Assembly: GCA_951406725.2 (NCBI GenBank)
Contig: OX597816.1
Coordinates: 95,914,001-95,978,000, forward strand
Source: Octopus vulgaris
Taxonomy: Eukaryota
Length of the DNA stretch: 64,000 nt
Reading direction: 5' to 3'
The notes below the pieces were generated by a model. That model did not search any database. It saw only the letters and a list, made by a program, of their open reading frames with translations, and was not told the DNA's origin. The position numbers were made by a program, and so were the translations under genes. This document shows positions 7,350 through 46,680 of the stretch, piece after piece; the stretch's first letter is position 1, and every line of letters begins with the position of its first letter.

Positions 7350-9016
7350 TCAAGAGAAGTATGGTGTGATAGAAAACTGAACTGACATCTTACGGAAAAA
7401 GCTGGGCACCCTGGGTATCAGAAGAAGAATCTTCCAGAGTGACAGCCTATCTTCGTTGCTTTTCGTTCTCTGCATAATACCTCTGACATTTGTACTAAGA
7501 AAAATGAACCTGGGGTGCCAACTAAAGGAAAAATCCCAGACAATCAACCACCTCCTCTTCAAGGGCGATTTGAAACTGTATGGCAAAGATGAGACACAAG
7601 TGAGTTCCGTGGTGAACACGGTCCACTATTTTAGTACTGATACTATGTGGAGAGGCAAGGTACAGTCCCTAGCATGGTTAGAATTACCGAATAGAGACTT
7701 GATTAAGCAAACTGAAACGGAAGGATACAAATACTTTGGTGTACTAGAGTGCATCGAGATAACAGAAAAGGAAATGAAAGAGCAACTGAGGATGGAGTAT
7801 TTCCGAAGACTGAGGTTGGTAAAGTTCAAGCAATTAATACGTGGCGATAGCATCACTTCAGTATGGAGCAGGAATTATAAAATGGCAAAAGAGAGAAATG
7901 AAGACGATGGATAGCAAGAGAAGAAAAATGTTGACAGTACACGGAGTCTTCCACTCTAAGAGTGACACCGATAAGCTGTACTTGTCCAGAAAAAAGGGTG
8001 AGGGAGATTTTGATCAGTTGCTAGGACTGTATCGAAGCAGAGGAAAATAGCCTAGGGTGGTATATATAAAAATGCCGTGACCCACTGTTGAAACGCGAAG
8101 AAGGCTGGCGTCATCAAAACTGAAAATTATGTAATTAAAGAGAAATTTAAACAAGAAATGAACAAAGAAAGAAAGAAAGAAAGAAAGAAACGAAAAAGCA
8201 TGTTTGCAAGAGATGTGAACGCCAAGACGGATACAGAGGCCTGGTGGCTATGGATGAGGAAAAGTGACCTGAAGATAGAGACAGAAGCACTCATATGCGC
8301 AGCTCAGGAACAAGCGTTAAGGACCAATTATATGAAGTGCAGAATTGACAACAGTACCGATAGCGACAGCTGCAGAATGTGTGGTAAGAGGGGTGAAACG
8401 GTATGGCACATCGTTAGCGAATACCCGAAATTGGCACAACGCGAATAAAAACGATGCCATGAATGATCCATTGGAAGCTCTGTGGAAATCACGGCCTACA
8501 AAGAGCAAAGACTTGGTATGAATAAACCCCAGAAGGAGTCACCGAAAATGAGAACTGCAAAATCCTGTGGGATGTAATGATCCAGTGCGATCACCTGACC
8601 AGACATAGAAAACCGGACATTGTTGAGGTGAATAAAAATGAAGGAACATGTATGATTATCGACATAGCATGCTCCGGTGACGACAGGATCAATGTAGAAG
8701 ACAGAGTAGAAGACAAAATAAACAACTATGATGATTTAAAGTAGGAAATGGTAGTGGTCAATGAAGAGAGTAGACGTGATACCAATAGTAATTGGTGCAC
8801 TTGAAAGTATCAGCACTGAGCTACCAACATGGCTGAAAAAGATCGGTGCAAGTATGAGGGTAGAACACCTACAAGAATCAGCAATGCTTAGAACTGCAAG
8901 AATTCTTCGCAGGGTTCTTGAAACATGACCAGTAAGCAAGTGTCACCTTAGTCTGCTGGCTGTGGACAGCTGACGCTTTCTATCATACCCAGCAAAATAA
9001 GCTGCGAGTTTTCATA
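7350..9016 (+). mobile_element. R4/Dong-clade non-LTR retrotransposon, 5'-truncated and decayed (copy 1)
   Basis: RT motifs IFQSDSLSSLLFVLC and INHLLFKGDLKLYG; CCHC-type knuckle CRMCGKRGETVWHIVSE; restriction-like endonuclease ILWDVMIQ..RKPDIV..IIDIA; ends in (TAA)n. Confidence 0.85.
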
Positions 9017-9027
9017 TAATAATGATG

Positions 9028-9088
<61 letters not shown>
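9017..9088. repeat. (TAA)n
   Basis: Visible. Confidence 0.95.
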
Positions 9089-9438
9089 GTAAATATATTA
9101 AGTAATGTTCATAGAGATATCATTAAGAACAAAACAATTAACTGACTGGCGCTGAAATTAACCAAATTAGAACACAAATATTTCATGGTAGACCAAATGA
9201 ACACAGCAACAATGCAGATGAAATTGGTAACAGATGCACAAAATCCAGTTTACGAGCAGTACGTCCCAACGAAGAAGCTGAACAAAGAATAGCAAAGAAC
9301 AGAAATGAAGAAATAGAGGAAAGTATAGACCTACCTTAAGGACACCAAAATATTCATGACACAAAGTTTGAGAAGAATCATAGAGAAAAGATCATAGAAG
9401 CAAAGGAAGATATTATTAGAGGCAAGACTGAGTTTACT
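9089..9438 (+). mobile_element. duplicated 5' piece of the second R4/Dong element
   Basis: Near-identical to 10879-11236. Confidence 0.8.
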
Positions 9439-10820
9439 GTACTGATATTAGAATGGAATTTGGACTCAGAAATTCCCTAGCATGGTTAGAATTACCGAAT
9501 AGAGACTTGATTAAGCAAACTGAAACGGAAGGATACAAATACTTTGGTGTACTAGAGTGCATCGAGATAACAGAAAAGGAAATGAAAGAGCAACTGAGGA
9601 TGGAGTATTTCCGAAGACTGAGGTTGGTAAAGTTCAAGCAATTAATACGTGGCGATAGCATCACTTCAGTATGGAGCAGGAATTATAAAATGGCAAAAGA
9701 GAGAAATGAAGACAATGGATAGCAAGAGAAGAAAAATGTTGACAGTACACGTCTTCCACTCTAAGAGTGACACCGATAAGCTGTACAGAAAAAGGGTGAA
9801 TTGGGAGAGATTTTGATCAGTTGCTAGGACTGTATCGAAGCAGAGGAAAATAGCCTAGGGTGGTATATATAAAAATGCCGTGACCATACTGTTGAAACGC
9901 GAAGAAGGCTGGCGTCATCAAAACTGAAAATTATGTAATTAAAGAGAAATTTAAACAAGAAATGAACAAAGAAAGAAAGAAAGAAAGAAAGAAACGAAAA
10001 AGCATGTTTGCAAGAGATGTGAACGCCAAGACGGATACAGAGGCCTGGTGGCTATGGATGAGGAAAAGTGACCTGAAGATAGAGACAGAAGCACTCATAT
10101 GCGCAGCTCAGGAACAAGGGTTAAGGACTAATTATATGAAGTGCAGAATTGACAACAGTACCGATAGCGACAGCTGCAGAATGTGTGGTAAGAGGGGTGA
10201 AACGGTATGGCACATCGTTAGCGAATACCCGAAATTGGCACAACGCGAATAACAAACGATGCCATGAATGATCCATTGGAAGCTCTGTGGAAATCACGGC
10301 CTACAAAGAGCAAAGACTTGGTATGAATAAACCCCAGAAGGAGTCACCGAAAATGAGAACTGCAAAATCCTGTGGGATGTAATGATCCAGTGCGATCACC
10401 TGACCAGACATAGAAAACCGGACATTGTTGAGGTGAATAAAAATGAAGGAACATGTATGATTATCGACATAGCATGCTCCGGTGACGACAGGATCAATGT
10501 AGAAGACAGAGTAGAAGACAAAATAAACAACTATGATGATTTAAAGTAGGAAATGGTAGTGGTCAATGAAGAGAGTAGACGTGATACCAATAGTAATTGG
10601 TGCACTTGAAAGTATCAGCACTGAACTACCAACATGGCTGAAAAAGATCGGTGCAAGTATGAGGGTAGAACACCTACAAGAATCAGCAATGCTTAGAACT
10701 GCAAGAATTCTTCGCAGGGTTCTTGAAACATGACCAGTAAGCAAGTGTCACCTTAGTCTGCTGGCTGTGGACAGCTGACGCTTTCTATCATACCCAGCAA
10801 AATAAGCTGCGAGTTTTCAA
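9439..10820 (+). mobile_element. R4/Dong element copy 2 (tandem duplicate of 7635-9016)
   Basis: ORFs 9962-10252 and 10541-10744 are nearly or fully identical to 8158-8448 and 8736-8939. Confidence 0.9.
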
Positions 10821-10878
10821 ATAATAATAATAATAATAATAATAAGAAGAAGAAGAAGAATAAGAATAATAAGAAGAA

Positions 10879-13800
10879 GTAAATATATTAAGTAATGTTC
10901 ATAGAGATATCATTAAGAACAAAAAATTAACTGACTGGCGCTGAAATTAACCAAATTAGAACACAAATATTTCATGGTAGACCAAATGAACACAGCAACA
11001 ATGCAGATGAAATTGGTAACAGATGCACAAAATCCAGTTTACGAGCAGTACGTCCCAACGAAGAAGCTGAACAAAGAATAGCAAAGAACAGAAATGAATA
11101 AATAGAGGAAAATATAGACCTACCTTAAGGACACCAAAATATACATGACACAAAGTTTGAGAAGAATCATAGAGAAAAGATCATAGAAGCAAAGGAAGAT
11201 ATTATTAGAGAACTCAACAAGACTGAGTTTACTGACATATCCAATAGAAAACTGCTACTAAGGTTTTCAAGCAGCACAACAAATAACAATATAATCATGA
11301 TATATGACGTTGCTCTTAAACAGATCATAAGAAATAAAGGAAATGATCTAACAACCTTAAATAAAGCTATCTATTCTACTGCTAATGTAGTAACTGCTCA
11401 CCTAGGTATTAGGATGTCACAGAAAAGGATCAGACAGGTCAATAAACCTTATAAGTGAAAAGCAGCAATACAAAAAGAGATTAAATCTTTGCAGGCGGAT
11501 GTATCAGTTCTCGATGACCTTGCAACAAGAATAAATATTAAGATGCAAAAAGCTAGAAAACAAAATCAAGCAAAAATATAAAATCAAAGATTTAATAAAC
11601 CTCCCTGCAACCAAGGAACTATTGAAACAGCGCATACAGTTGAAAGCCAAACGGCTTAGAAGGTATGATAAAAGTATTAAATTTTATCAACAAAACAAAG
11701 TATTCTAGACAGATGTAAAGAAATTTTATAGAGAAATTAGCAAAAGTAAGATAGAAGTAAAGGAACCATTTAAGACTAAGAAAATAAAAGGATTCTGGAA
11801 GAAGATATGAAGCAACGAAAAAGAGTATAATGTTGAGGCTGACTGGATAGAACGTGAGAAAGAGAGACTGGATGAACTTGAAGAACAGAAATGGGAAGCA
11901 ATAGGAATAGAGGAGCTAAGGTGTGTCCTTAGGAAGGCTCATAAATGGAAAACCCCAGGACTGGATCGGATCCCTAACTTCTGGCTGAATTGTTTGACAG
12001 AGGTACACGAAAATCTCGCTGCATCTCTGTCTGATGTCATTCAGAACCCAGAGCAAATACCTGCTTGGCTGACTGAAGGAACCACCTACCTATTACCTAA
12101 AACCGAAGACACAAAAAACCCAAAGAATTACCGGCCAATAACATGTCTCAACACCACCTACAAGATCCTCACATTCATACTAAGTGAAAGAATATACACT
12201 TCAACAAGACCAAAAAGGTTGTAAACGAAATTCTTATGGGTGCAAAGAACAATTGCTCACAAACAGAATGATTGCAAAGAATTGCCGGGGAAAAACCGAG
12301 AACCTGAGTATGGCATGATTTGACTCAGGCTCGGTCTTATTTCTGGTAGGATTTATGTTAGTAGCAGGTTACTACCTGTAACCTTAAGTATCCACAAGAT
12401 TCTACTAGTCTTTCAAGTGCTTAGAAACCTCCTGATAATCTTTCCTATCTCTAAGAGGCAAACTTTCTGTAGAAGCTCTACAGAACATTCTATTTCAATC
12501 TCCAGGAAAGCGTTTGATACTTTCTTACACAAGTGGCTACTCAAGGCCCACGAGATATATAAGATCTCTCCTGTCGTCTCTAAATTCTTACAGGGTATCA
12601 TGGCCAAGTGGAAGACACGTCTCTTTCTAAATCATAATAATGGAACGAGCTAATTCAAAAACATCAACATCGAATGAGGCATCTTCCAAGATGACTCCTT
12701 TTCTCCATTACTTTTTTGCATGGTCCCACTCTCAAACAAGCTGAATAACACCAGGTATGGGTTCAAAAGTTTTAACACAATAATTAATCATCTGTTTTAC
12801 ACGGACGATCTAAGGCTGTTTGCTAGGAATGATGAAGAGCTAGTAGGGCTCTTAACAACTGTTACAGAGTTTAGCAATGACATCGGAATGGATTTTGGCC
12901 TCGATAAGTGTGCTAAAGCAACTTCTGTAAGATGCAAGCTCAAACAAACAGCTTTCATCAAACTAAGGGACTTGAAAGTTAAAAATACCAAGGAATAAAC
13001 GGATGGTATACATCATACTACAATGAAGAAAAAAAATTAAAAAGGAGTACTATAGGAGAATAAGACTTATACTGAAGACTGAACTCAACTCGAAAAATCG
13101 CATCGAAGCCATTAATACTCTGGCACTACCAGTATTCCAATATAGTTTTAACACTATTAACTGGAATCCTACGGAGCTGCAACGCTTGGATAGGAAGACA
13201 AGAGAAAATTATTTTACATCCAAGAACATGCACCACTCTAAAGCAGACGCTGACCATCTGTACCGACCTAGAGTTAGTGAAAGAAGGAAGAAATGATGCA
13301 ATTAGAACTGTGCTATAAGACCTCCACAATAGCAATGAACTGGAACTTATCTAGCACAGAACACCGGATGCTGCGACTTGTATGCAAACATGAAAGAAGC
13401 AAAAAAATCACATTCTATTGTCAAAGAAGCTTATAAATTCGCAAGGGAACTTGACATTAACCCTGAATTCGATGAAGAATCTGAAACCACTGCCAACAAG
13501 TAAGCAAAACGAATCAAGGACACTGCAAAAAAGAATGGGCAGAAACAAACTGAGGAGTAGGAGAGCCAGAAGCCCCTGCATGGACAATATATTCTTCGAA
13601 GACAAAATGCTGATGTAGACCAAGCAACAACCCATGAGTGACTGAGAAGTTCAAGACTGAAAGCAGTGACTGAAGGTTTGATATAGGTAGCACAAGATCA
13701 AAGATTGTTCACCAGAAATAATCAGGCTAACGTTCTTCAAAACGGTACTGATCCTAAATGCAGATTCTGCGACACATTTGACGAAACAATAGGCCATCTC

Positions 13801-14494: not shown

Positions 14495-14752
14495 ATGAAG
14501 GAATATGAAAACTATAATGGTTGTGCCTATAATGACTGGTATATTGGGAACTCTAAGAAAAGATATAGACAAATGGTTGAAGGAGATTGAAATAGAATGT
14601 TCTGTAGAGCTTCTACAGAAAGTTTGCCTCTTAGAGATAGGAAAGATTATCAGGAGGTTTCTAAGCACTTGAAAGACTTATGGAAGCTTGTGGATAGTAA
14701 CTCGCTACTAGCATAAATCCTACAAGAAATACGACCGAGCCTGAATCAAATC

Positions 14753-31045: not shown

Positions 31046-31278
31046 CGTGAGTATGCGCGTGCGCGTGAGTGTACAATGCATATACATATAAGGATATTCA
31101 TTTCGTGGATATTTTTGTACTAAATTGCTTTCATATCTGAATTATGAAGAGTTTTTCCAAGAAATGATTGCTGATCAGAAAGAATAGTAGGTGGCACCAC
31201 TGTTTCTTTCTTACATCTTATTCATCGTTTAAACGTCGTGTCTTAGCTCTTTTGGGACAGAAGTTAGTGTGTATATAT

Positions 31279-33771
31279 ACGGGGTCCAGGTTTCGGATGC
31301 GTAAAAGAGGGTTGGAATAATGACTGCCCTGTACACCATGAGTTTGGTTTCGGTTCGGATGTCCCGATCAGCAAAAACTCTTGTTCGACGCTTGCCAAAA
31401 GCTGTTCCTGCACACTTCAGACGGTGTTGGATTTCATCGCTGAGGTCTACCTTTGCAGACAGATGGCTCCCAGGGTAGCAGAAATGGTTCATATTTTCCA
31501 GTGGAATTCCTTCGAGTTGAATCGATGGCGGGTTGTCAACACGGGCATTGGGAGGAGGTTGGTAGAGTAAGTGAGTCTTCTTGATGTTGATGCTCAGTCC
31601 AAGTTTAGTATATGCATGATGGAAAGCATTTAGGATCTGTTGGAGGTGATCCTCTCTATAAGCTGCTACATTTGTCGTCGGCATATTGGAACTCTAGCAA
31701 GCTTCGCGCCATTGTCTTTGACGTACTTTTGAGGCGAGCGATGTTGAAAAGCTTGCCGTCCATTCTGTACGAGATCTCGATTCCACGTGGAAGGTCATCT
31801 CGTATGATGTGCAACACTGTCGCGATAAAGATGGTAAAGAGAGTTGGCGCTATCACGCAGCCTTGCTTCACTCCGTAGGTGACTTTAAAGGGCTCAGAAC
31901 TGCCTCCGTCGGTCTGAACTCTGGCGTGCATATTGTCGTGGAGGAGTTTGAGGATCCGGATGAACTTATCTGGGCATCCATACTGGGCGAGTATATCCCA
32001 GAGGAGCTCTCGCGAGACACGATCAAAGGCTTTGGATAGGTCGATAAAGGCCAAATAGAGCGGTTGTGTTGCTCACGACATTTTTCTTGTAGCTGTCGCA
32101 GCGTGAAGATCATGTCGGTTGTGCTTCGTGATGGCCTAAAGCCGGTCTGCGTCTCAGGAAGGATCCTCTCTGACAGCATTTTGAGGCGGTTGTTCAGGAT
32201 GCGCGCAAGAATCTTCCCAGCAGTTGCTAATAAGGAAATACCCCGGTAATTTCCACACTCAGAACGATCGCCTTTTCGTTTGTAAATGGTAATGATGTTA
32301 GCATCCCTGAAGTCGGATGGTACAACTTCATTTGTCCAGATTTTGACCAAGAGTTGGTGGAGCTGGTGTTGGACAAAATCACCTCCCAGTTTGTAGATCT
32401 CAGCTGGGATTCCGTCAGGACCCGCGGCTTTGTTGTTCTTCATCGCTGTGATAGCAATTTTGACCTCTTCGAGGGATGGAATTCGAGCGAGAGAGTAATC
32501 TTTGGCCTCTTTAGGAATCATGTCAAGTATGCTTTTGTCGATGGTAGCCTTGTGATTGAGGAGGTCATCGAAGTGTTCTCTCCATCTGTCTCCTATTTTG
32601 GTGTTGCTTTTCAGGATGGTCACTCCGTCTTTACTCTTCAGAGGAGCCTGTCCATGTGTGGAAGGTCCGTATATTTCTTTCGTGGCTTTGAAGAACCCTC
32701 TGGTGTCGTTTACATCTGCTAGCTGCTGGATTTCACGAGATTTGTGTCTCCACCACTGGTTCTTCAGGGTACGGGTTGTCCTTTGAACTGCGGCTTTGCA
32801 CTTTTTGAAAGACTCTCGTTTAGTGGCAGACTTTGGATCATTCTGTGAGCTGATGAAAGCTTTCCGTTTTTTGGTCGATCAGTTCTTTGAGAGCTTCATC
32901 ATTGTCGTCGAACCAAGTCCTGGTGTTTCCTTTTCTTGCGACCGATGGTTTCTTCGCAAGCGGTGATGATGGTTTCTTTCAGCTGGTTCCAATTTTCTTC
33001 GACGAGATGATTTGGAGTCTATTTTGAAGATTGACCTGTAGGCGCTGCTGGAAAGCGACACGAGTTTTTGGGTCTTGCAGTGCTTCGATGTTGAATTTCT
33101 TTACTCTGCTTTCCTTGCTGTGATATTTCACCTTTGGTCGGAGTTTGATTTTCATGGTGGAGGCGATGAGGCGATGATCTGTCCAGCACTCATCTGCTCC
33201 AGTGGCGGCTCTGGTGAGCAACACATCTTGCTGGTCTCGGGATCTCACGATGATATAGTCGATGAAATGCCATTTTTTAGATCTTGGATGCTGCCATGAG
33301 ACCTTATATCGATTCTTCTGGCGAAAAAGGGTGTTGGTTATCACCAGGTTATGTTCAGCACATTTGGTGAGTAGCAGAGTTCCATTGGCATTGACTTTTC
33401 CCACTCCTTCCTTTCCGATGGTTCTGTCCAGAGTTCACGATCTCTCCCAACTCTGGCGTTGAAATCTCCCAGGAGAATGATCTTGTCGTCCTTTGGGACG
33501 GTAGAGAGAATGCTATCAAGCTGGCTGTAAAACTCTTCCTTGACTAAATCCTCCGCGTCAAGGGTGGGAGCATACGCGCTGATGATAGTTGCGTGCTGAC
33601 TCTTGACAAGCTGGATTCGGAGGGTCATGAGTCGTGCGGCATTCCGATGAGCTGCTCTGTCAGTTTGGATAGGATGATGTTTCGTATTGCAAAACCCACA
33701 CCATGGATCCGTTGATGGTCTGGATTGTAACCTTTCCAGAAAAAGGTGTATTGACCGCCTTATTCTCTCAG
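31279..33771 (-). mobile_element. RTE-BovB LINE, inverted 5' segment (APE endonuclease and RT, frameshifted)
   Basis: ISAYAPTL, LLGDFNARVG, WTDHRL, NYRGISLL, AFIDLSKAFDRV, GVKQGCVIAPTLF, QYADD, YASETWTPY. Confidence 0.95.
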
Positions 33772-34363
33772 CCGTATAGTCACCACCTGAAAACGCTCGA
33801 GAAATTTCACCAACGCTGTCTTCGGAAGATCCTTAACATCAGCTGGGAAGACAGAAGAACTAACGTCAGCGTGCTATAAGAAGCAAAAATGACCGGCATC
33901 GAAGCCTATGCCATCAAAGGCCAACTAAGATGGAGCGGCCACGTGGTTAGAATGACTGACGAACGACTTCCCAAACAGATCTTCTACTCCCAACTCAAAG
34001 ACGGCAAGCGTACAAAAGGAGGCCAGAAGAAACGCTACAAGGACTCCCTGAAAACGAACCTCAAAAAGTGTGACATCGACTTCACTAACTGGGAGGAAAC
34101 GGCAAAAACAGACCACTCTGGAAAACCACCATCCATGAGGGAACGGCGACTTTCGAGTCGAAAAGGTCTGCAGAGCTGGAGGAGAAAAGACGACGACGGA
34201 AGGAGCGCCAACAACAACCACGTGCGACTCTCCCTTCCGGCACTAGATGTCCGCACTGCGACCGATCTTTTCAAGCAAGAATTGGTCTTATCGGTCACCT
34301 GCGGACTCACCAGTAAATTTGCGCGAAGACCATCATCCTCGACCTTGAGGGATTGCCATCATC
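33772..34363 (+). mobile_element. RTE-BovB LINE, forward 3' segment
   Basis: Continues PYSHHLKTLEKFHQRCLR...QLRWSGHVVRMTDERLPKQIFY; C-terminal CPHC..H zinc finger; (CAT)n tail; TSD AGTGTGTATATAT at 31266-31278 and 34364-34376. Confidence 0.95.
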
Positions 34364-34441
34364 AGTGTGTATATATTTTTACATGCATAAATGCATAATA
34401 CATATGTGTGAGTATATATATGTATGTATGTATGTATGTAT

Positions 34442-37933: not shown

Positions 37934-38134
37934 AAGAGAGAGAGAGAGAGAGAGAGGGAGGAGAGAGAGAGTGAGAGAGAGAGGTGCGTTTATGTGGATT
38001 AGCAAATTAGATATATTAAATATAATAGTTTGGGTATGAAATACAAAATGTGTATATATACATGCAAAACGAGAGAAAGCGGTGACTTTCAGACGATGAA
38101 TATTTAAGTACAAATATACAGACATATATATATA

Positions 38135-38269
38135 GTCCGCATGAGATCCAGAAATTCTCAGCATAGAAGACAGTTGTACTAAAATAATTCAAACTTAGAC
38201 ACTTTACAGGGGATCAATTCTATGGTGTAAAGAATGGCTATAAAGGGGATCAGGTTAAGCAGACGGAGG
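38135..38269. repeat. left arm of a perfect 135-bp inverted repeat (partner 39962-40096)
   Basis: Base-by-base reverse complement identity. Confidence 0.95.
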
Positions 38270-39738
38270 TAGCAGAGCGGAAGCCAAGAACTATAGACCT
38301 ATCTCTCTGACCTCACACATCAGCAAGGTCATGGAACGAATAGTCAGAAGGAAGCTGATCACCTTCCTTGAAGAGAATGACTTGCTGCCCGACACCCAAC
38401 ATGGTTTCCGACCAGGAGAAGCTGTTTAACTCAGCTCCTACAACACTATGACTGGGTGCTGAAACGGCTGCTCAACCACTCAAATGTGGAAGTGATATAT
38501 CTCGACTTTGCAAAGGCCTTTGATAAAGTCGATCATGGAATGATATGTCACAAACTGCGTGATCTCAACATAGTTGGAAAACTGGGAGAATGGCTTCATG
38601 ACTTTCTGAAGGATAGAAGTCAGGTGGTAGTAGCCAATGGGGCCACCTCCATTAACACACAAATAGTGAGCGGTGTTCCGCAGGGCACTGTTCTGGGACC
38701 ACTACTGTTCATAATGGCCCTCTCAGACATGCCCTCAGCCACGCAGAGAGCCACGATCACAAGTTATGCAGATGATACAAAAGTTTCACAGGCAATACAG
38801 AACCCTGAGGACACTAAACAACTGCAATGTGAGCTGGACGAAATATACAAGTGGGCTGAAAAGAATAGCATGCAGTTCAATGCTGGAAAGTTTCAAGCTT
38901 TATACTATCAGCATGCAAAACTGAATGCAATACCCAATGAATACACTGGACCCGGAGGGATTGCAATCCCAGAGGCACAATCAGTGCGTGACCTGGGTAT
39001 TCACATGAGTGATGACGCGACCTTTCATGTACATGTTGCTAAACTGACAATGAAATGTAGACGGCTGGCTGGATGGATTCTTAGAACCTTTAGAACAAGA
39101 GAACAAGAAACCATGATGGTCCTCTGGAAGACACTTGTCCTAATCCACTTTGACTATTGCTCTCAGCTATGGTCACCATCCAGTGTCAAGTTGATCACAG
39201 AACTTGAGGCGATCCAACGAAGCTACACAAAGAAGATAGCCTCTATGCAGAATGTAAGCTACTGGGAAAGACTCAAGAGATTAAAATTATATTCCCTGGA
39301 GCGTAGGCGGGAAAGATATGCCATAATATACATCTGGAAGATCCTGGAGGGAAGTGTCCTGAACTTTGGCATCGAGAGTTACGCAAATGCCAGAACTGGG
39401 CGCCACTGCGTGGTGCCTAGGACTCCAAACCTGCCATCAAGATGTAGGACAAGATTCTGTGATAGCCTGGGCTTCCGAGGCCCACAGCTCTTCAATATCC
39501 TCCCGAAGAACCTGAGAGACCTGCATGGGGTGGATACAGATGTCTTTAAAATGAAGCTGGATCTCTTCCTGTCAGGTGTCCCAGATGAACCAACTTCACG
39601 GCAGGAGGGGCAGATGAGGGCAGCTGCATCGAACTCTCTCATGCACCAAATAGCTAGAAAGCCTCCATGAAGTGAAACCAAGTAGCAACACCAAATGGCG
39701 GTGCCCCAGCATGGCCACAGCTCATAAGCTGAAACTAG

Positions 39739-39766
<28 letters not shown>
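38265..39766 (+). mobile_element. CR1-group LINE, 5'-truncated
   Basis: KNYRPISLTSH, RT ORF, 3' stem-loop tail and (TCAA)n. Confidence 0.92.
38456..39670 (+). CDS. LINE reverse transcriptase domain and C-terminus (404 aa open frame)
   Basis: [44 protein letters not shown]. Confidence 0.9.
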   Translation: MLKRLLNHSNVEVIYLDFAKAFDKVDHGMICHKLRDLNIVGKLGEWLHDFLKDRSQVVVANGATSINTQIVSGVPQGTVLGPLLFIMALSDMPSATQRATITSYADDTKVSQAIQNPEDTKQLQCELDEIYKWAEKNSMQFNAGKFQALYYQHAKLNAIPNEYTGPGGIAIPEAQSVRDLGIHMSDDATFHVHVAKLTMKCRRLAGWILRTFRTREQETMMVLWKTLVLIHFDYCSQLWSPSSVKLITELEAIQRSYTKKIASMQNVSYWERLKRLKLYSLERRRERYAIIYIWKILEGSVLNFGIESYANARTGRHCVVPRTPNLPSRCRTRFCDSLGFRGPQLFNILPKNLRDLHGVDTDVFKMKLDLFLSGVPDEPTSRQEGQMRAAASNSLMHQIARKPP

Positions 39767-39770
<4 letters not shown>

Positions 39771-39961
39771 TACAGACATTTTTGTTAATAGATCCAACTA
39801 ACACAGAATACAAATGACAAAGAAAATTAAAGGGAAGGAAGAAAGGTGTTATAAGTCCAACAGTTGTTTCTGTGGGCTTGGAGATCCACCATAATGTTGC
39901 TAGATGTTGATCATCACAATATGCGGCCGTAATGGAAACAATCAACATTGGATAAGTTGAG

Positions 39962-40093
39962 CCTCCGTCTGCTTAACCTGATCCCCTTTATAGCCATTCT
40001 TTACACCATAGAATTGATCCCCTGTAAAGTGTCTAAGTTTGAATTATTTTAGTACAACTGTCTTCTATGCTGAGAATTTCTGGATCTCATGCG

Positions 40094-40096
<3 letters not shown>
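39962..40096. repeat. right arm of the 135-bp inverted repeat (original flanking DNA)
   Basis: Exact reverse complement of 38135-38269. Confidence 0.95.
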
Positions 40097-40138
<42 letters not shown>

Positions 40139-40149
40139 CAGGAAGAATG

Positions 40150-40460
40150 AAGGCTCTATTCGGTTTCGACCACGAGCGCACTAGTTCATAAGATTAATCA
40201 ATCAACCTGCCTGTGACATTAACGTGCAAGTAGCTGAGCACTCCACAGGCATGCATATCCATAACGCATTTTTCAAAGATCCAGCATGGCACAGTGTGAC
40301 AAACTAGGCATTTCAGTTACAGGTATAACTACTTCTTGCCACCTGAGTGGATTGGAGCAATGAAAATAAAGAGTCTGCTCAAGCATTTAATGCACCACCA
40401 GGAATGGAATTCATGACATTACGGTCGTGAGTCGAATACTCTAGCCACAAACCGCGCGCT
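40150..40460 (-). mobile_element. diverged tRNA-SINE (family B-related)
   Basis: Similar to 61200-61490; head reverse complement GTGGCTAGAGTATTCGACTCACGACCG. Confidence 0.65.
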
Positions 40461-40582
40461 AGAAATAACATAGAAGTGTAGAAGTGACTGTATCGCACTA
40501 CTAACACAAAAGTACCACTCAGTGGTGAGTTTTAAACCTTTATGTTATGGTTGCAAAATGAAATACGGTATCCCTGTCAGCA

Positions 40583-41832
<1,250 letters not shown>

Positions 41833-42631
41833 AGGAGGGATCGAAATCCCAGTATCGAAATCAATACGGGACCTGGGGATAGACATGAGTGACGATGCAT
41901 CTTTTTCTTCACACATCGCGAAGGTGGCGACAATGTGCAGACGACTCACTGGCTGGATCCTGAGGACATTCAGGACAAGAGACTGCGAGACCATGTTGAC
42001 ACTATGGAGGACATTTGTCCTAAGCCGCCTGGACTACTGCTCCCAACTGTGGTCACCGCATAGTGTCAAACTAACCACAGAGCTTGAGACAATCCAAAGA
42101 CATTTCACCAAGAGGATTTCCACCATGAAAGAAAAGAACTATTGGGAGAGGCTTAGGGAACTCAATTTGTACTCCTTGGAACGAAGACGAGAGAGATATG
42201 CAGTGATATACATATGGAAAATCCTGGAGGGACTAGCACCAAATTTTGGAATTGAGAGCTGTTCCAATCCCCGTACAGAACGTCACTGTGTGGTGCCAAA
42301 GGTCCCGTCTTCCACATCCAGGGTAAGGAGCAGATACTGTAATAGCCTGGGGTTCAGGGGCCCTCAGCTTTTCAACAAACTGCCAAGAAAACTAAGAGAT
42401 CTACATGATGCGGATGTGGACATTTTCAAAAAACATCTAGACAAGCTGCTTTCCGGGATCCCAGATGAACCCACTGCAAGGTACGAAGGTAACCTAAGGG
42501 CAGCAGCTACAAACTCTCTCTTAGATCAGTGGCCAGCCACGGCAAACTGGACTTAGAGAGGGTAGCAACAAGGGCGGTGCCCCAGCATGGCCTCAGCCGG
42601 ATGGCTGAAACAAGTAAAAGAGTAAAAAGAG

Positions 42632-42632: not shown

Positions 42633-43302
<670 letters not shown>

Positions 43303-46300
43303 GCCAACACACAAACCTGAATAACAATAAAAATAGAAACACACCATGCTGCAGTAATGCTGGTCCAGTCTTTTCAGGAAGACACAAAAACAACAACAAC
43401 AAAAGTGGAAACTACAACCCTATCCAACAGTGCAACCACACCTCCAGCCAAAAACTGCTCCCTAAGCAGGAAAATTCTTTTTTAGCCATGTTGAACATGG
43501 CAAAAGAGATACACAAAAACATTCTAGCCATCACTCAACACCATCCTATGCTATTACCCCAGTGCACCAATTCCCCACATTGCTGCCACTAACACACACA
43601 AAAAATCCAAGCCCCCTGCAACAGTCAAAACCAGCCACTACACTAACCTCCACATTCCTACTCAATGCACAAGGTGTCAGCCCTTCCATCAATGCACAAA
43701 AATGGAAGGTCCAATTCATTGAAGACTGGGTTGGTAACCATTCACACCACATCCCTTTCTTCATTCTCACTGAGACCCACCTTGACAACTCCCACTTGGA
43801 AGCCGAAGTGAGAGTGAAGAATTTCACAACCATCCGCGCGGATCGTATCGGCAGGAGGAAGGGTGGAACTGCCATTTTCCTGCATGATTCATTTACGGCA
43901 GATGGAAATAGTATATTCTCCAACGGCTACTGTGAATCAGTCACCGTGCACAACAAAGCCAATGATCTGACAGTAATTGGACTCTATAGGCCGCCCCAAA
44001 CACCCATACTGTGCTTTAAAGAATGCCTCAACAGCATTAAGTGCTTTATTCAACAGTGCCATTCTAGCAACATACTCATGATGGGAGACTTCAATCTACC
44101 CTGTGTTGACTGGACTACAAACTGTTTGAAACCAAGCACTCCCGCCTCAACCGCTGACAAAGAAGCAGCAGAGTCACTTTTCGACTTTACGAATGAGTTT
44201 TTCTTGTCCCAACTTGTCCTTGCACCAACAAGACATCAGAACATTTTGGACCTAGTGTTTAGTAACCACACTAACACTATACATAACGTTACAGTGGAAA
44301 AAACCCTTCTTTCAGACCATGACATGGTTCTCTGTAACATGAAATTCCACCAGCCGAAAGCTAATCCTAGTGACCTTCCTCCAGCCCACCCATTTGACAA
44401 CATGGATCTCCATAAAGCCAACTGGGATGCAATCAGGAACGAGCTATCAAATGTTGACTGGTCCTTTACACATACACACATCTCCACCAACCATAAAACA
44501 TCTTGGCAGATCTTTGTAGACACCGTCACAGACATATGTGCAAAACACTCCCCACCAAGACCTGTGAACAAAAAGTGCAGAATCCCCCAAAACAGAAAAA
44601 CCATTATCAGAAAAATAAAAAGAACAAACAAAAAAATTAACAAACTAAAGTACTGCCAACAGCAACACACACATTCGACGGCTATCGCACTGCTTGAATC
44701 CAAAAAATATAACCTCCAACAATGCATGAAGTCCCTCATCAATAACCAAAGATCAGCTGAGGAGAAGTGGGCCATTGAAAAAATCAAACTCAACCCCAAA
44801 GTGTTCTTTTCATTTGCGAGGAAACGCAGGGTCACTGTCTCCACTGTAGGCCCTCTAATTGACGAAACTGGCACTCTCCAAGATAATGCCAAATCCATGG
44901 CCGAGATACTGCAGAAACAATACTGCTCTGTTTTCAGCAATCCTGATATGGCCGATCTGGGCTGTATCAGTGATGTCAACCCCCAACACACTATATCGGA
45001 CATAACGTTTAGTGCCCCTGATGTCTTAGCGGCGATAAACGAAATAAAACACAATTCAGCAGTAGGCCCCGATAGGTTCCCTGCTTGTGTCCTGAAGGTG
45101 TGTCGACACCAACTTGCATCTCCCCTTGCTAATCTGTGGAGAAACTCACTGGATGCTGGCTATATTCCAAAAACCTTCTGTCCCAGTCTGTTGTCCCAGT
45201 TTTCAAAAAGGGAAACAAGTCCCTTGCAGTGAATTACCGTCCGATCTCACTCACCTCTCATATCATCAAGGTATTTGAGAGGGTGGTGAGATCTCAAATA
45301 ACCCAATTTCTGGAAAGCAACAGACGGCTGATCTCCAACCAACATGGGTTCCGTAATGGAAGGGACTGCCTAACGCAGCTCCTGCATCACTTTGAGGACA
45401 TTTTGAGAGCTTTGGGAGAGGGCTCCAACACCGATGTCATCTACCTTGATTTCAGTAAGGCCTTCGACAGGGTCGATCACAAGATCCTATTGAAAAAACT
45501 ATCCAACATTGGTGTCTCTGGAAAGTTACTGAAATGGATTAAGTGTTTCCTGACAGACAGATCTCAACATGTTGTAGTTGAAGGGGTAAAATCAAGCCCA
45601 GCCAAAGTCAGTAGTGGCGTTCCGCAAGGCACTGTGCTGGGCCCACTTCTTTTCATCATTTACATTAATGACATTAATGACATCATCAAGCACAGCAACA
45701 TAAAAATCTTTGCAGATGACTCCAAGCTACAGAAGGTCATAAATGAGGCGAGTGACCGGACATGCCTTCAGTCAGATCTACTGGCTGTTATCCAATGGGC
45801 AGAAAAAAACAATATGCTGCTGAACGAGGATAAATTTGAGCTAATCCACTTTGGAAAAGAGGATGCCCTGAAACTCCCATACTCCCTTCCTTCAGGTGAA
45901 ACTCCCACGGCGTCCAACAACATCAGAGACTTGGGAGTAATTGTGGACAACAACGTAAGCTGGGCCACTCATATAAACACCAAAGTTGACATGGCCCGCA
46001 GAATGTGTTCCTGGATTCTCAGAACTTTCCAGTCGAGAGATATCCACACCATTATCCTTCTCTTCTCCACTTTTGCCCGACCCCACCTTGAATACTGTTG
46101 TCCACTGTGGTCTCCCCACACAATACAAGGTATCATAAAAGTCGAAGCACCTCAAAGGGCAATCACAAAAAAGATAGATGGCATGACAGGCCTCGACTAT
46201 TGGGGTCGACTAGAAAAGCTAAAACTCTATTCTCTCCAACGTCGTCGTGAGCGCTACATCATCTGCATGATGTGGAAAATATTCCATCAGCATTGCCCAA

Positions 46301-46680
46301 ATGATGTTGGCATCACCTTTAAGGTACATCCAAGGCTTGGGCCCCGTGCCATCCGCCCAAAACAAAAATCGCACTCTCATCTCATAACAACAATACGGCA
46401 CAATTATTTCACCTCAATTGGCCCCGCTCTCTTTAACATTACACCAAAACACATTAAAACTGAAACTGACCCTATAGGGTTCAAGAAGTCTTTGGACAGA
46501 TTCCTTCAAGAAATCCCGGATAAACCCCCTACACCCGGATATGTCTCTGTAAACAATAACTCTCTACTTGAGTGGGCCATAGTGCCCAAATTCTGACTTG
46601 AAAGACTTCACCAGGTGGTGCTATTAAGTTAGACATGGCCTGGGCCAATAATGGCCGAAACCTATCAAAGTATCAAAGTA
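43303..46680 (+). mobile_element. CR1-group LINE with nearly intact ORF2 and probable ORF1 C-terminus
   Basis: APE plus RT; (TATCAAAG)2 tail; both ends abut (TA)n. Confidence 0.93.
43562..46596 (+). pseudogene. LINE ORF2 (APE endonuclease and RT), one frameshift near 45170-45180
   Basis: LTETHL, GLYRPP, MGDFNLP, ILDLVF, LSDH in frame 43562-45232; NYRPISLTSH, YLDFSKAFDRVDH, GVPQGTVLGPLLF, FADDSK in frame 45136-46596. Confidence 0.9.

What the first reader, a model, noticed from the sequence alone, without database searches (positions are those of the whole stretch)
38113..40096. CR1 LINE insertion that captured a perfect 135-bp inverted copy of its own downstream flank (local template jump)
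Seen: a 13-bp direct repeat AATATACAGACAT (38113-38125 and 39767-39779) brackets a short (AT)n, a 135-bp segment and the 5'-truncated LINE. The 135-bp segment (38135-38269) is the exact reverse complement of DNA about 180-320 bp downstream of the insertion (39962-40096). The junction has GGAGG microhomology shared with the LINE frame (GGSRAEAKNYRP), and the other end resolves in TA microhomology. Inference: the nascent cDNA 3' end (CCTCC) primed on nearby flanking DNA, was extended into the TA tract, then annealed to the target. The product is an RT gene between perfect inverted repeats with TA ends, which mimics a TIR transposon carrying an RT and could fold into a ~2 kb stem-loop.
Basis: partly seen in the sequence, partly recalled or inferred. 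Interest (0 to 1): 0.8.

Follow-up and report, generated by a model that had tools for sequence, protein, structure and literature searches.

The report
LINE insertion with snap-back flank copy
A broken jumping gene in what is probably an octopus-type genome has a perfect backwards copy of 135 bases of its own neighbouring DNA at its front end, most likely a one-off scar made when the new DNA strand folded back during insertion, a rare outcome already described for other such elements.

Summary
Observation confirmed. A 13-bp target-site duplication (38113-38125, 39767-39779) brackets a TA filler, a 135-bp exact inverted copy of flank lying 182 bp downstream, and a 5'-truncated LINE (38265-39738) with an (AATC)n tail. 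Contigs from 3 of 3 contig runs show the family sequence matching from 38265 while the arm matches to 38269, so the 5-nt GGAGG microhomology is real (chance 0.2-0.5%). The arm is low-copy while the LINE is abundant, and one contig shows the uninterrupted site (ortholog or paralog unknown). This argues against a dispersed TIR-RT element. Strand geometry implies the cDNA end folded back onto its own strand, or an identical sister strand, then joined the TSD through 2 nt. That matches 'snap-back' junctions of R2 and templated insertions of L1 and ZfL2 in print. No read shown supports the left-arm junctions, so an assembly artefact is unlikely but not excluded. CR1 clade membership was not established. 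The scan noted similar snap-back scars, without a LINE, on other DNA. Verdict: a clean natural example of a known rare outcome; interest low to moderate.

The parts
38113..38125 (+). 5' copy of the target-site duplication (13 nt; last 2 nt AT also match the copied TA tract)
38126..38134 (-). TA filler continuous with the inverted arm; reverse complement of the start of the TA tract at 40097 onward
   Evidence: (exact IR extends to 38124)
38135..38269 (-). 135-bp exact inverted copy of 39962-40096 (templated insert)
   Evidence: 0 of 135 differences
38265..38269 (+). GGAGG microhomology shared by the arm and the LINE 5' truncation point
   Evidence: loose ends before 38265
38265..39738 (+). 5'-truncated LINE: RT C-terminal part (ORF stop 39668-39670), 1-nt frameshift near 38416, short 3' UTR with a predicted hairpin pair
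39739..39766 (+). (AATC)n 3' tail; runs 3 nt into the TSD
39767..39779 (+). 3' copy of the target-site duplication
39780..39961 (.). 182 bp of downstream flank between TSD and donor arm; part of a middle-repetitive host sequence
   Evidence: depth 1.5k-7.8k and 16-42 contigs at listed sites
39962..40096 (+). Donor arm (original flank); begins with the only CCTCC in 39780-40583
40097..40135 (.). (TA)19.5 tract in which copying ended

Best explanation
This is a single 5'-truncated LINE insertion whose 5' junction carries an inverted copy of nearby flank, most likely made during insertion when the new cDNA end folded back onto its own strand and was extended. Shown: TSD, tail, truncation point, 5-nt inner microhomology, exact 146-nt inverted repeat, low copy number of the arm, and existence of an uninterrupted site form. 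Inferred steps: (1) target-primed reverse transcription began on the bottom strand at 39767, using 3 nt of match to the (AAUC)n tail, and stopped after about 1.47 kb with a 3' end reading CCTCC. (2) The downstream top strand was likely resected or displaced for at least 182 nt. (3) The cDNA end annealed to GGAGG on the bottom strand at 39962-39966, a loop of about 1.7 kb on the same molecule (an identical sister chromatid would give the same product). (4) About 140 nt were copied outward into the TA tract. (5) The end was released, paired through AT with the upstream TSD overhang, and was filled in. The copying enzyme is likelier a host microhomology end-joining polymerase (Pol theta type) than the element's RT, but this is untested. 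The product is a dead, non-mobile scar with no evidence of function.
For: The insert sits exactly between an intact TSD and the LINE truncation point. The 5-nt overlap is confirmed from family sequence in 3 of 3 contig runs; simulated chance is 0.16% one-sided and 0.5% two-sided. The arm starts at the only CCTCC in the 800 bp downstream. Arm bins have summed depth 99-362 against 0.76-2.3 million in LINE bins. Run X3 has a contig joining 38131 to 39803 with 17 other letters: 6+17 = 23 = the length of 39780-39802, and 9 of those letters equal 39786-39794, which is the uninterrupted site with one TSD. At 40005 most laid depth has C (211/211, 341/376, 321/385) while both window arms carry the A/T allele, so the left arm copies this haplotype's right arm. 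The LINE copy is young: four 5-6 Mb or 57-61 Mb assemblies (X9-X12) hold 0.62-0.63 of words when the LINE body is 0.69 of the query. The class is in print: R2 snap-back onto 'nearby rDNA' (PMC11371274, passages); 22 L1 templated insertions in a set of about 3,600 (10.1101/2024.08.27.596794, section 4); flank-derived 5' extra nucleotides of ZfL2 (PMC4245944, section 10 and passages); cDNA self-annealing after resection (PMC11702581, passages and section 7).
Against: No listed contig or read shows either left-arm junction (TSD-TA-arm or arm-LINE). Most rows were hidden (140 joints, 1,649 loose ends, 80,685 pieces), and no run held more than 0.85 of the words. The raw-read run X21 gave only 4 reads and is uninformative. 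The uninterrupted-site contig differs at 6 of 8 adjacent letters and may be a paralog, since both flanks are middle-repetitive. The outer junction has only 2 nt of microhomology, which is common by chance (16% two-sided in the null built for the inner junction). The 182-bp distance is much larger than the 'within 15 bp' typical of the L1 series. Two joints seen in all three contig runs (38184 to 38006, 38115 to 39695) are unexplained.
Confidence: 0.78

Rival explanations
1. The LINE inserted normally; a later break at its 5' junction was repaired by templated end joining that copied the downstream flank in inverted orientation.
For: Templated inverted insertions arise without retrotransposition (general knowledge of Pol theta end joining, recalled). 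A second inverted fragment in this window sits in the middle of another element's RT gene, not at a 5' end.
Against: The TSD is intact to the base and the insert lies exactly between TSD and LINE, which a later random break would rarely give. Arms are identical and the LINE copy is young, leaving little time.
Confidence: 0.08
2. The left arm is an assembly or library artefact (fold-back chimera).
For: No independent record shown spans the left-arm junctions. Contigs in X15 and X3 run from 39933 to 40089 without a break at 39962, though only 29 letters lie on the short side, under the tool's 31-letter rule for bridging.
Against: A fold-back chimera would mirror at one point; it would not skip 1.7 kb, return to the correct upstream flank, keep a perfect TSD and use a 5-nt overlap at the LINE's truncation point. 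The unbroken contigs are equally what non-carriers would give.
Confidence: 0.06
3. The RT switched template from LINE RNA to an antisense RNA, or to DNA of another copy of the host repeat, and the match to the neighbouring flank is incidental.
For: The flank is middle-repetitive, with 4-7 contigs at 40005. RNA-to-RNA switches are described for L1 and R2.
Against: 100% identity to the local arm including the minority allele at 40005 and the adjoining TA tract. The nearest copy is 182 bp away.
Confidence: 0.05
4. A mobile composite element: an RT gene between terminal inverted repeats with TA ends.
For: Superficial layout: 135-bp perfect inverted arms each ending at TA. One joint in 3 of 3 contig runs places the outer part of the arm upstream of the left flank, as a TIR on the host repeat would.
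Against: The TSD pair brackets the left arm and LINE but excludes the right arm, which lies 182 bp outside. Family contigs continue with LINE sequence, not arm, upstream of 38265. Arm depth is at least 2,000-fold below LINE depth. The RT is truncated and frameshifted, and the stretch between the arms holds no other ORF of 150 aa or more.
Confidence: 0.02

Closest known systems
'Snap-back' 5' junctions of R2-mediated insertions (PRINT; PMC11371274, passages read)
   Same: [quoted passage not shown] This is the same geometry as here.
   Different: That is engineered R2 at rDNA in human cells. Here it is a natural, assembled genomic copy of an unrelated RT family with a TSD, and the template is 182-317 bp into non-rDNA flank.
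Templated insertions at L1 integration sites (10.1101/2024.08.27.596794 section 4; PMC11702581 section 7 and passages)
   Same: Genomic DNA near the site is copied into the insertion; templates under 250 bp; proposed cDNA release and annealing to nearby DNA; inversions and inverted duplications at target sites; cDNA self-annealing after resection.
   Different: Those are somatic or cultured-cell human L1. Templates usually lie within 15 bp of the site, versus 182 bp here. The long-range self-annealing example there ended as a chromosomal foldback, whereas here it was released and joined as an insertion.
5' extra nucleotides of zebrafish ZfL2 (L2/CR1-group) inserts (PMC4245944, passages and section 10)
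   Same: Non-L1 LINEs often carry 5' extra nucleotides derived from their flanks by annealing-based joining.
   Different: The passages read describe 'several' nucleotides and TSDs near 5 bp; here 135 bp plus TA, and a TSD of 8-13 bp.
Twin-primed 5' inversions of L1 (described)
   Same: Inverted segment at the 5' end between TSDs.
   Different: In twin priming the inverted part is element sequence; here it is host flank.

Membership tests
TPRT insertion of a non-LTR retrotransposon | RT-coding body | tested here: met
   Pfam RVT_1 E 1.6e-19; 4,553 homologs among 7,130 candidates
TPRT insertion of a non-LTR retrotransposon | 3' simple-repeat tail, 5' truncation, flanking TSD | tested here: met
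   (AATC)7.8 tail; truncation at 38265; 13-nt direct repeat
Snap-back / locally templated 5' junction | Extra 5' segment identical to DNA near the insertion site, in antisense orientation | tested here: met
   135 of 135 nt identical to the reverse complement of 39962-40096
Snap-back / locally templated 5' junction | Microhomology at the priming junction | tested here: met
   5 nt GGAGG; chance 0.16-0.5%
Snap-back / locally templated 5' junction | Orthologous pre-insertion allele has one TSD and only the donor arm | tested here: inconclusive
   An uninterrupted form is seen in 1 of 3 contig runs among the rows shown, but orthology is not shown
Snap-back / locally templated 5' junction | Junction supported by independent reads | tested here: inconclusive
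   No listed piece spans it; most rows hidden; raw-read run gave 4 reads
CR1 clade LINE | RT phylogeny groups with reference CR1 elements | not testable with these tools
   No clade-labelled references were returned; named hits are generic (Argonauta hians hypothetical protein, 63%). The resemblance of the C-terminal region to CR1 rather than L2 is recalled, not tested.
CR1 clade LINE | Short tandem-repeat tail preceded by a 3' UTR stem-loop; no RNase H domain | tested here: met
   Tail; predicted hairpins of -18.0 kcal/mol, with a similar fold in the related copy at 42554-42625 (no shuffle control); Pfam finds only RVT_1. These features are shared with L2 and related clades (recalled).
CR1 clade LINE | TSD peak of 3-5 bp (as stated for CR1 and L2 in PMC4245944) | tested here: not met
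   TSD here is 8-13 nt. It is one copy and a population peak is not a strict rule, but the element is filed only as CR1-group-like.
CR1 clade LINE | Apurinic endonuclease upstream of the RT | tested here: inconclusive
   Lost by truncation; a more distant copy in the window (41% RT identity) has Exo_endo_phos_2
TIR DNA transposon / composite element | TSD flanking both inverted repeats | tested here: not met
   The right arm lies 182 bp outside the TSD pair
TIR DNA transposon / composite element | Dispersed copies with the same ends | tested here: not met
   Arm depth 99-362 versus about 1e6; family contigs lack the arm upstream of 38265
Twin-primed 5' inversion | Inverted segment is element sequence | tested here: not met
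   The inverted segment is flank

The most novel reading that the evidence does not exclude
In this young, very abundant cephalopod LINE family, long-range snap-back onto the flank is a regular way of finishing insertions. The family would then have seeded the genome with many perfect 100-200 bp inverted repeats around new insertions, which form long double-stranded RNA in introns and create new A-to-I editing substrates in a lineage known (recalled) for heavy editing.
Probability: 0.07. Interest if true: 0.65.

Novelty: new member of a known kind. Interest (0 to 1): 0.27.

Why it matters
It is an unusually legible natural record of a retrotransposition intermediate: truncation point, priming microhomology, loop size (about 1.7 kb) and end of copying can all be read off. 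It extends snap-back or templated 5' junctions, described in R2, L1 and ZfL2 assays and in tumours, to an invertebrate genome assembly, with a template further from the site than usual. Practically, such loci can be mis-annotated as TIR elements carrying an RT. A single dead copy has no shown function. It would matter more only if the outcome proved frequent in the family or if the inverted repeats formed edited RNA duplexes.

Tried and rejected
No whole genome is held for this window, so genome-wide counts of arm-LINE junctions and of other copies with templated 5' ends could not be made. The raw-read run X21 (12.9 million records, about 3% of the run) laid only 4 reads, all in the LINE body. 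That is far fewer than the contig depth implies; it was treated as uninformative, cause unknown. Only 4 of the 24 runs listed were laid. Summed contig depth was not used as a copy number, only as a contrast. The search for TSDs at the two related LINE copies in the window found none for 41834-42631 and only weak 6-7 nt candidates in TA-rich DNA for 43300-46680. No TSD was found for the second inverted pair at 12316-12503 / 14582-14752. The arm has no third copy in the window and none upstream of the left flank. A TIR-transposon reading and a twin-priming reading were rejected (see membership tests). Clade assignment by homolog names failed because names were generic or absent. Literature: 7 answered searches. 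None listed a paper on flank-templated inverted 5' junctions in molluscs, but these were not designed as an exhaustive test and the library lacks most subscription papers. Supplementary figures of PMC11702581 (S9, S10) and of the bioRxiv tumour paper (Supp. Fig. 4d), which may show template orientation and distance, were not seen. Searches of earlier scan notes found nothing holding all words and nothing for this genome.

Full report
Observation. AATATACAGACAT occurs at 38113-38125 and 39767-39779 and nowhere else in the window, and it extends in neither direction. The exact inverted repeat is 146 nt, 38124-38269 against 39962-40107: 135 nt of non-repetitive DNA plus 11 nt of TA. It is the longest exact inverted repeat in the window outside low-complexity DNA. 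The donor arm starts 182 bp and ends 317 bp after the 3' TSD. Between the left arm and the 3' TSD lies an RT fragment (Pfam RVT_1) that ends in a stop at 39668-39670, a short 3' UTR predicted to fold into two hairpins (no shuffle control), and an (AATC)7.8 tail.

Host and element. The closest named homolog of the RT is a protein of the octopod Argonauta hians at 63% identity; an unnamed protein reaches 75%. With the other repeats in the window (RTE-like and Dong/R4-like remnants, labelled from recalled motifs), this suggests an octopod cephalopod. That is inference. CR1, RTE-BovB, Dong-R4 and Penelope are listed as major coleoid LINE families in PMC8967140 (passages). The family is young and abundant. 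20 of 24 listed runs, under 11 organism labels, hold 0.59-0.85 of the query's words; even 5-6 Mb assemblies hold 0.60-0.62, when the LINE body is 0.69 of the query. From this I infer that the copy differs from the family's common sequence at only a handful of sites. Visible private changes are 38821, 39144 and a 1-nt frameshift near 38416. I could not place the element in a clade. The tail and UTR fit the CR1/L2 group, but the TSD (8-13 nt) is longer than the 3-5 bp peak stated for CR1 and L2 in PMC4245944, and no labelled references were available. It is best called CR1-group-like.

Junction tests. I laid 37990-40500 on three contig runs and one raw-read run, 4 of the 24 listed. First, loose ends before 38265 in 24, 29 and 13 contigs give the family's upstream sequence, which reads C-P-I-H-K by eye. 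Among 72 of 120 homologs with the NYRP motif, P, K, G and G occupy the matching positions in 67, 69, 63 and 52. The LINE therefore matches from 38265 and the arm to 38269, a 5-nt overlap. A random junction between this LINE and this flank reaches 5 nt in 0.16% (one-sided) to 0.5% (two-sided) of trials. The arm starts at the only CCTCC in 39780-40583; three more lie inside the LINE. Second, summed depth is 0.76-2.3 million over LINE bins but 202-362 over 38158-38241 and 99-142 over 40006-40089. Summed depth is not a copy number, but the contrast shows the arm does not travel with the family. Third, run X3 has a contig (depth 58) that goes from 38131 to 39803 with 17 other letters; 6+17 equals the 23 letters of 39780-39802, and the first 9 equal 39786-39794. 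This is the site without insertion and with one TSD. It differs at 6 of the next 8 letters, and both flanks are middle-repetitive (depth in the thousands), so it may be a paralog rather than the orthologous allele. Fourth, at 40005 most laid depth reads C (211/211, 341/376, 321/385) while the window has A and the left arm its complement at 38226. The left arm thus copies the local haplotype.

Results against or missing. No row shown spans the TSD-TA-arm or the arm-LINE junction; 140 joints, 1,649 loose ends and 80,685 pieces were hidden. No run holds more than 0.85 of the words, so a carrier may simply not be among them. The raw-read run laid only 4 reads and says nothing. Contigs of X15 and X3 cover 39933-40089 in one piece with 2 differences, as expected of non-carriers, but with only 29 letters on the short side. 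Two joints present in all three contig runs, 38184 back to 38006 and 38115 to 39695, are unexplained. The first would fit a host repeat with short terminal inverted repeats at some other locus; it does not account for a 135-bp identical arm. The outer junction has only 2 nt of overlap, which is common by chance.

Mechanism. The LINE is on the + strand, so cDNA grows on the bottom strand from a nick at 39767, where the target shares 3 nt with the tail. Its 3' end at truncation reads CCTCC. The next 135 nt of that strand read like the top strand of 39962-40096, so the template was the bottom strand there, the very strand the cDNA is attached to. This follows from the sequence. The simplest inferred path is resection of the downstream top strand, fold-back of the single-stranded tail over a loop of about 1.7 kb at GGAGG, extension for about 140 nt into the TA tract, release, pairing by AT with the upstream TSD overhang, and fill-in. 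A sister chromatid template gives the same product. Which polymerase copied is not shown. I favour a host microhomology end-joining polymerase over the RT, on general knowledge of templated insertions (recalled). The intact TSD and the exact position of the insert argue for one event rather than a later repair (0.78 versus 0.08). An artefact (0.06) would not be expected to respect the TSD and the microhomology. A remote or RNA template (0.05) does not explain the allele match. A composite TIR element (0.02) fails on TSD position and copy number.

Comparison with known cases. [quoted passage not shown] The bioRxiv tumour study 10.1101/2024.08.27.596794 (section 4) found 22 templated L1 insertions among about 3,600, with templates under 250 bp usually within 15 bp of the site. 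PMC11702581 (section 7 and passages) reports three insertions with flank-templated sequence, three with flank inversions, and self-annealing of the cDNA end after kilobase resection. PMC4245944 (section 10 and passages) states that many 5' extra nucleotides of ZfL2-2 come from flanks. The locus is therefore a new natural member of a known junction class. Its unusual features are the template distance, the length and the taxon. My seven literature searches listed no mollusc example, but they were not exhaustive, and supplementary figures that may bear on distance and orientation were not seen. Two earlier scan notes on other genomes describe snap-back scars without a LINE; they were not checked and are not support.

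Verdict. The two arms would pair stably (-178.7 kcal/mol as a DNA duplex), yet nothing here shows transcription or function. Interest 0.27. The boldest reading not excluded, that this family commonly makes such inverted repeats and so supplies RNA-editing substrates, has about 7% probability and can be tested on a full assembly.

Noticed in passing
window 12316-12503 and 14582-14752: A second inverted pair. A tailless 3'-end fragment of a Dong/R4-like element (label from recalled motifs) lies inverted in the middle of another such element's RT gene, which continues on both sides. 97 nt are identical to a copy 2.1 kb downstream; the other 90 nt differ by about 10 substitutions and a 16-nt indel. 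The junctions resemble the host frame. It may be a second templated inverted insertion or a converted paralog; no TSD was found.
   Followed up: partly
window 38140-38184 and 38006 (joint 38184 to 38006): In 3 of 3 contig runs one contig (depth 33-49) carries the outer part of the arm upstream of the left flank. This may mean the host repeat has short terminal inverted repeats at another locus; unexplained.
   Followed up: no
window 38115 and 39695 (joint): In 3 of 3 contig runs one contig (depth 39-49) joins the left flank, 3 nt into the TSD, to the LINE's 3' end. It could be an independent insertion at the same site of another host-repeat copy.
   Followed up: no
window 38265-39738: The LINE is held nearly word for word in runs under 11 different organism labels. 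This fits closely related species sharing a young family; horizontal transfer or mislabelling was not examined.
   Followed up: no
window 41834-42631 and 43466-46680: Two more relatives: a truncated copy (68% protein identity, shares a 20-nt 3' UTR motif) and a near full-length endonuclease-RT copy with a frameshift (41% RT identity). Both are embedded in long TA-rich tracts.
   Followed up: partly
window 7666-9439 and 9474-11234: A tandem duplication of about 1.8 kb at 96.8% identity, containing an (ATA)n tail.
   Followed up: no
window 31229-34398: Decayed RTE-like LINE on the minus strand (RVT_1 hit; clade label from recalled motifs), with a plus-strand C-terminal piece at 33880-34398 next to its 5' part, possibly a 5' inversion.
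   Followed up: no
run X21: A raw-read run with the same species label as X15 laid only 4 reads on a LINE that is extremely deep in the contig runs; the label or a read filter may explain it.
   Followed up: no
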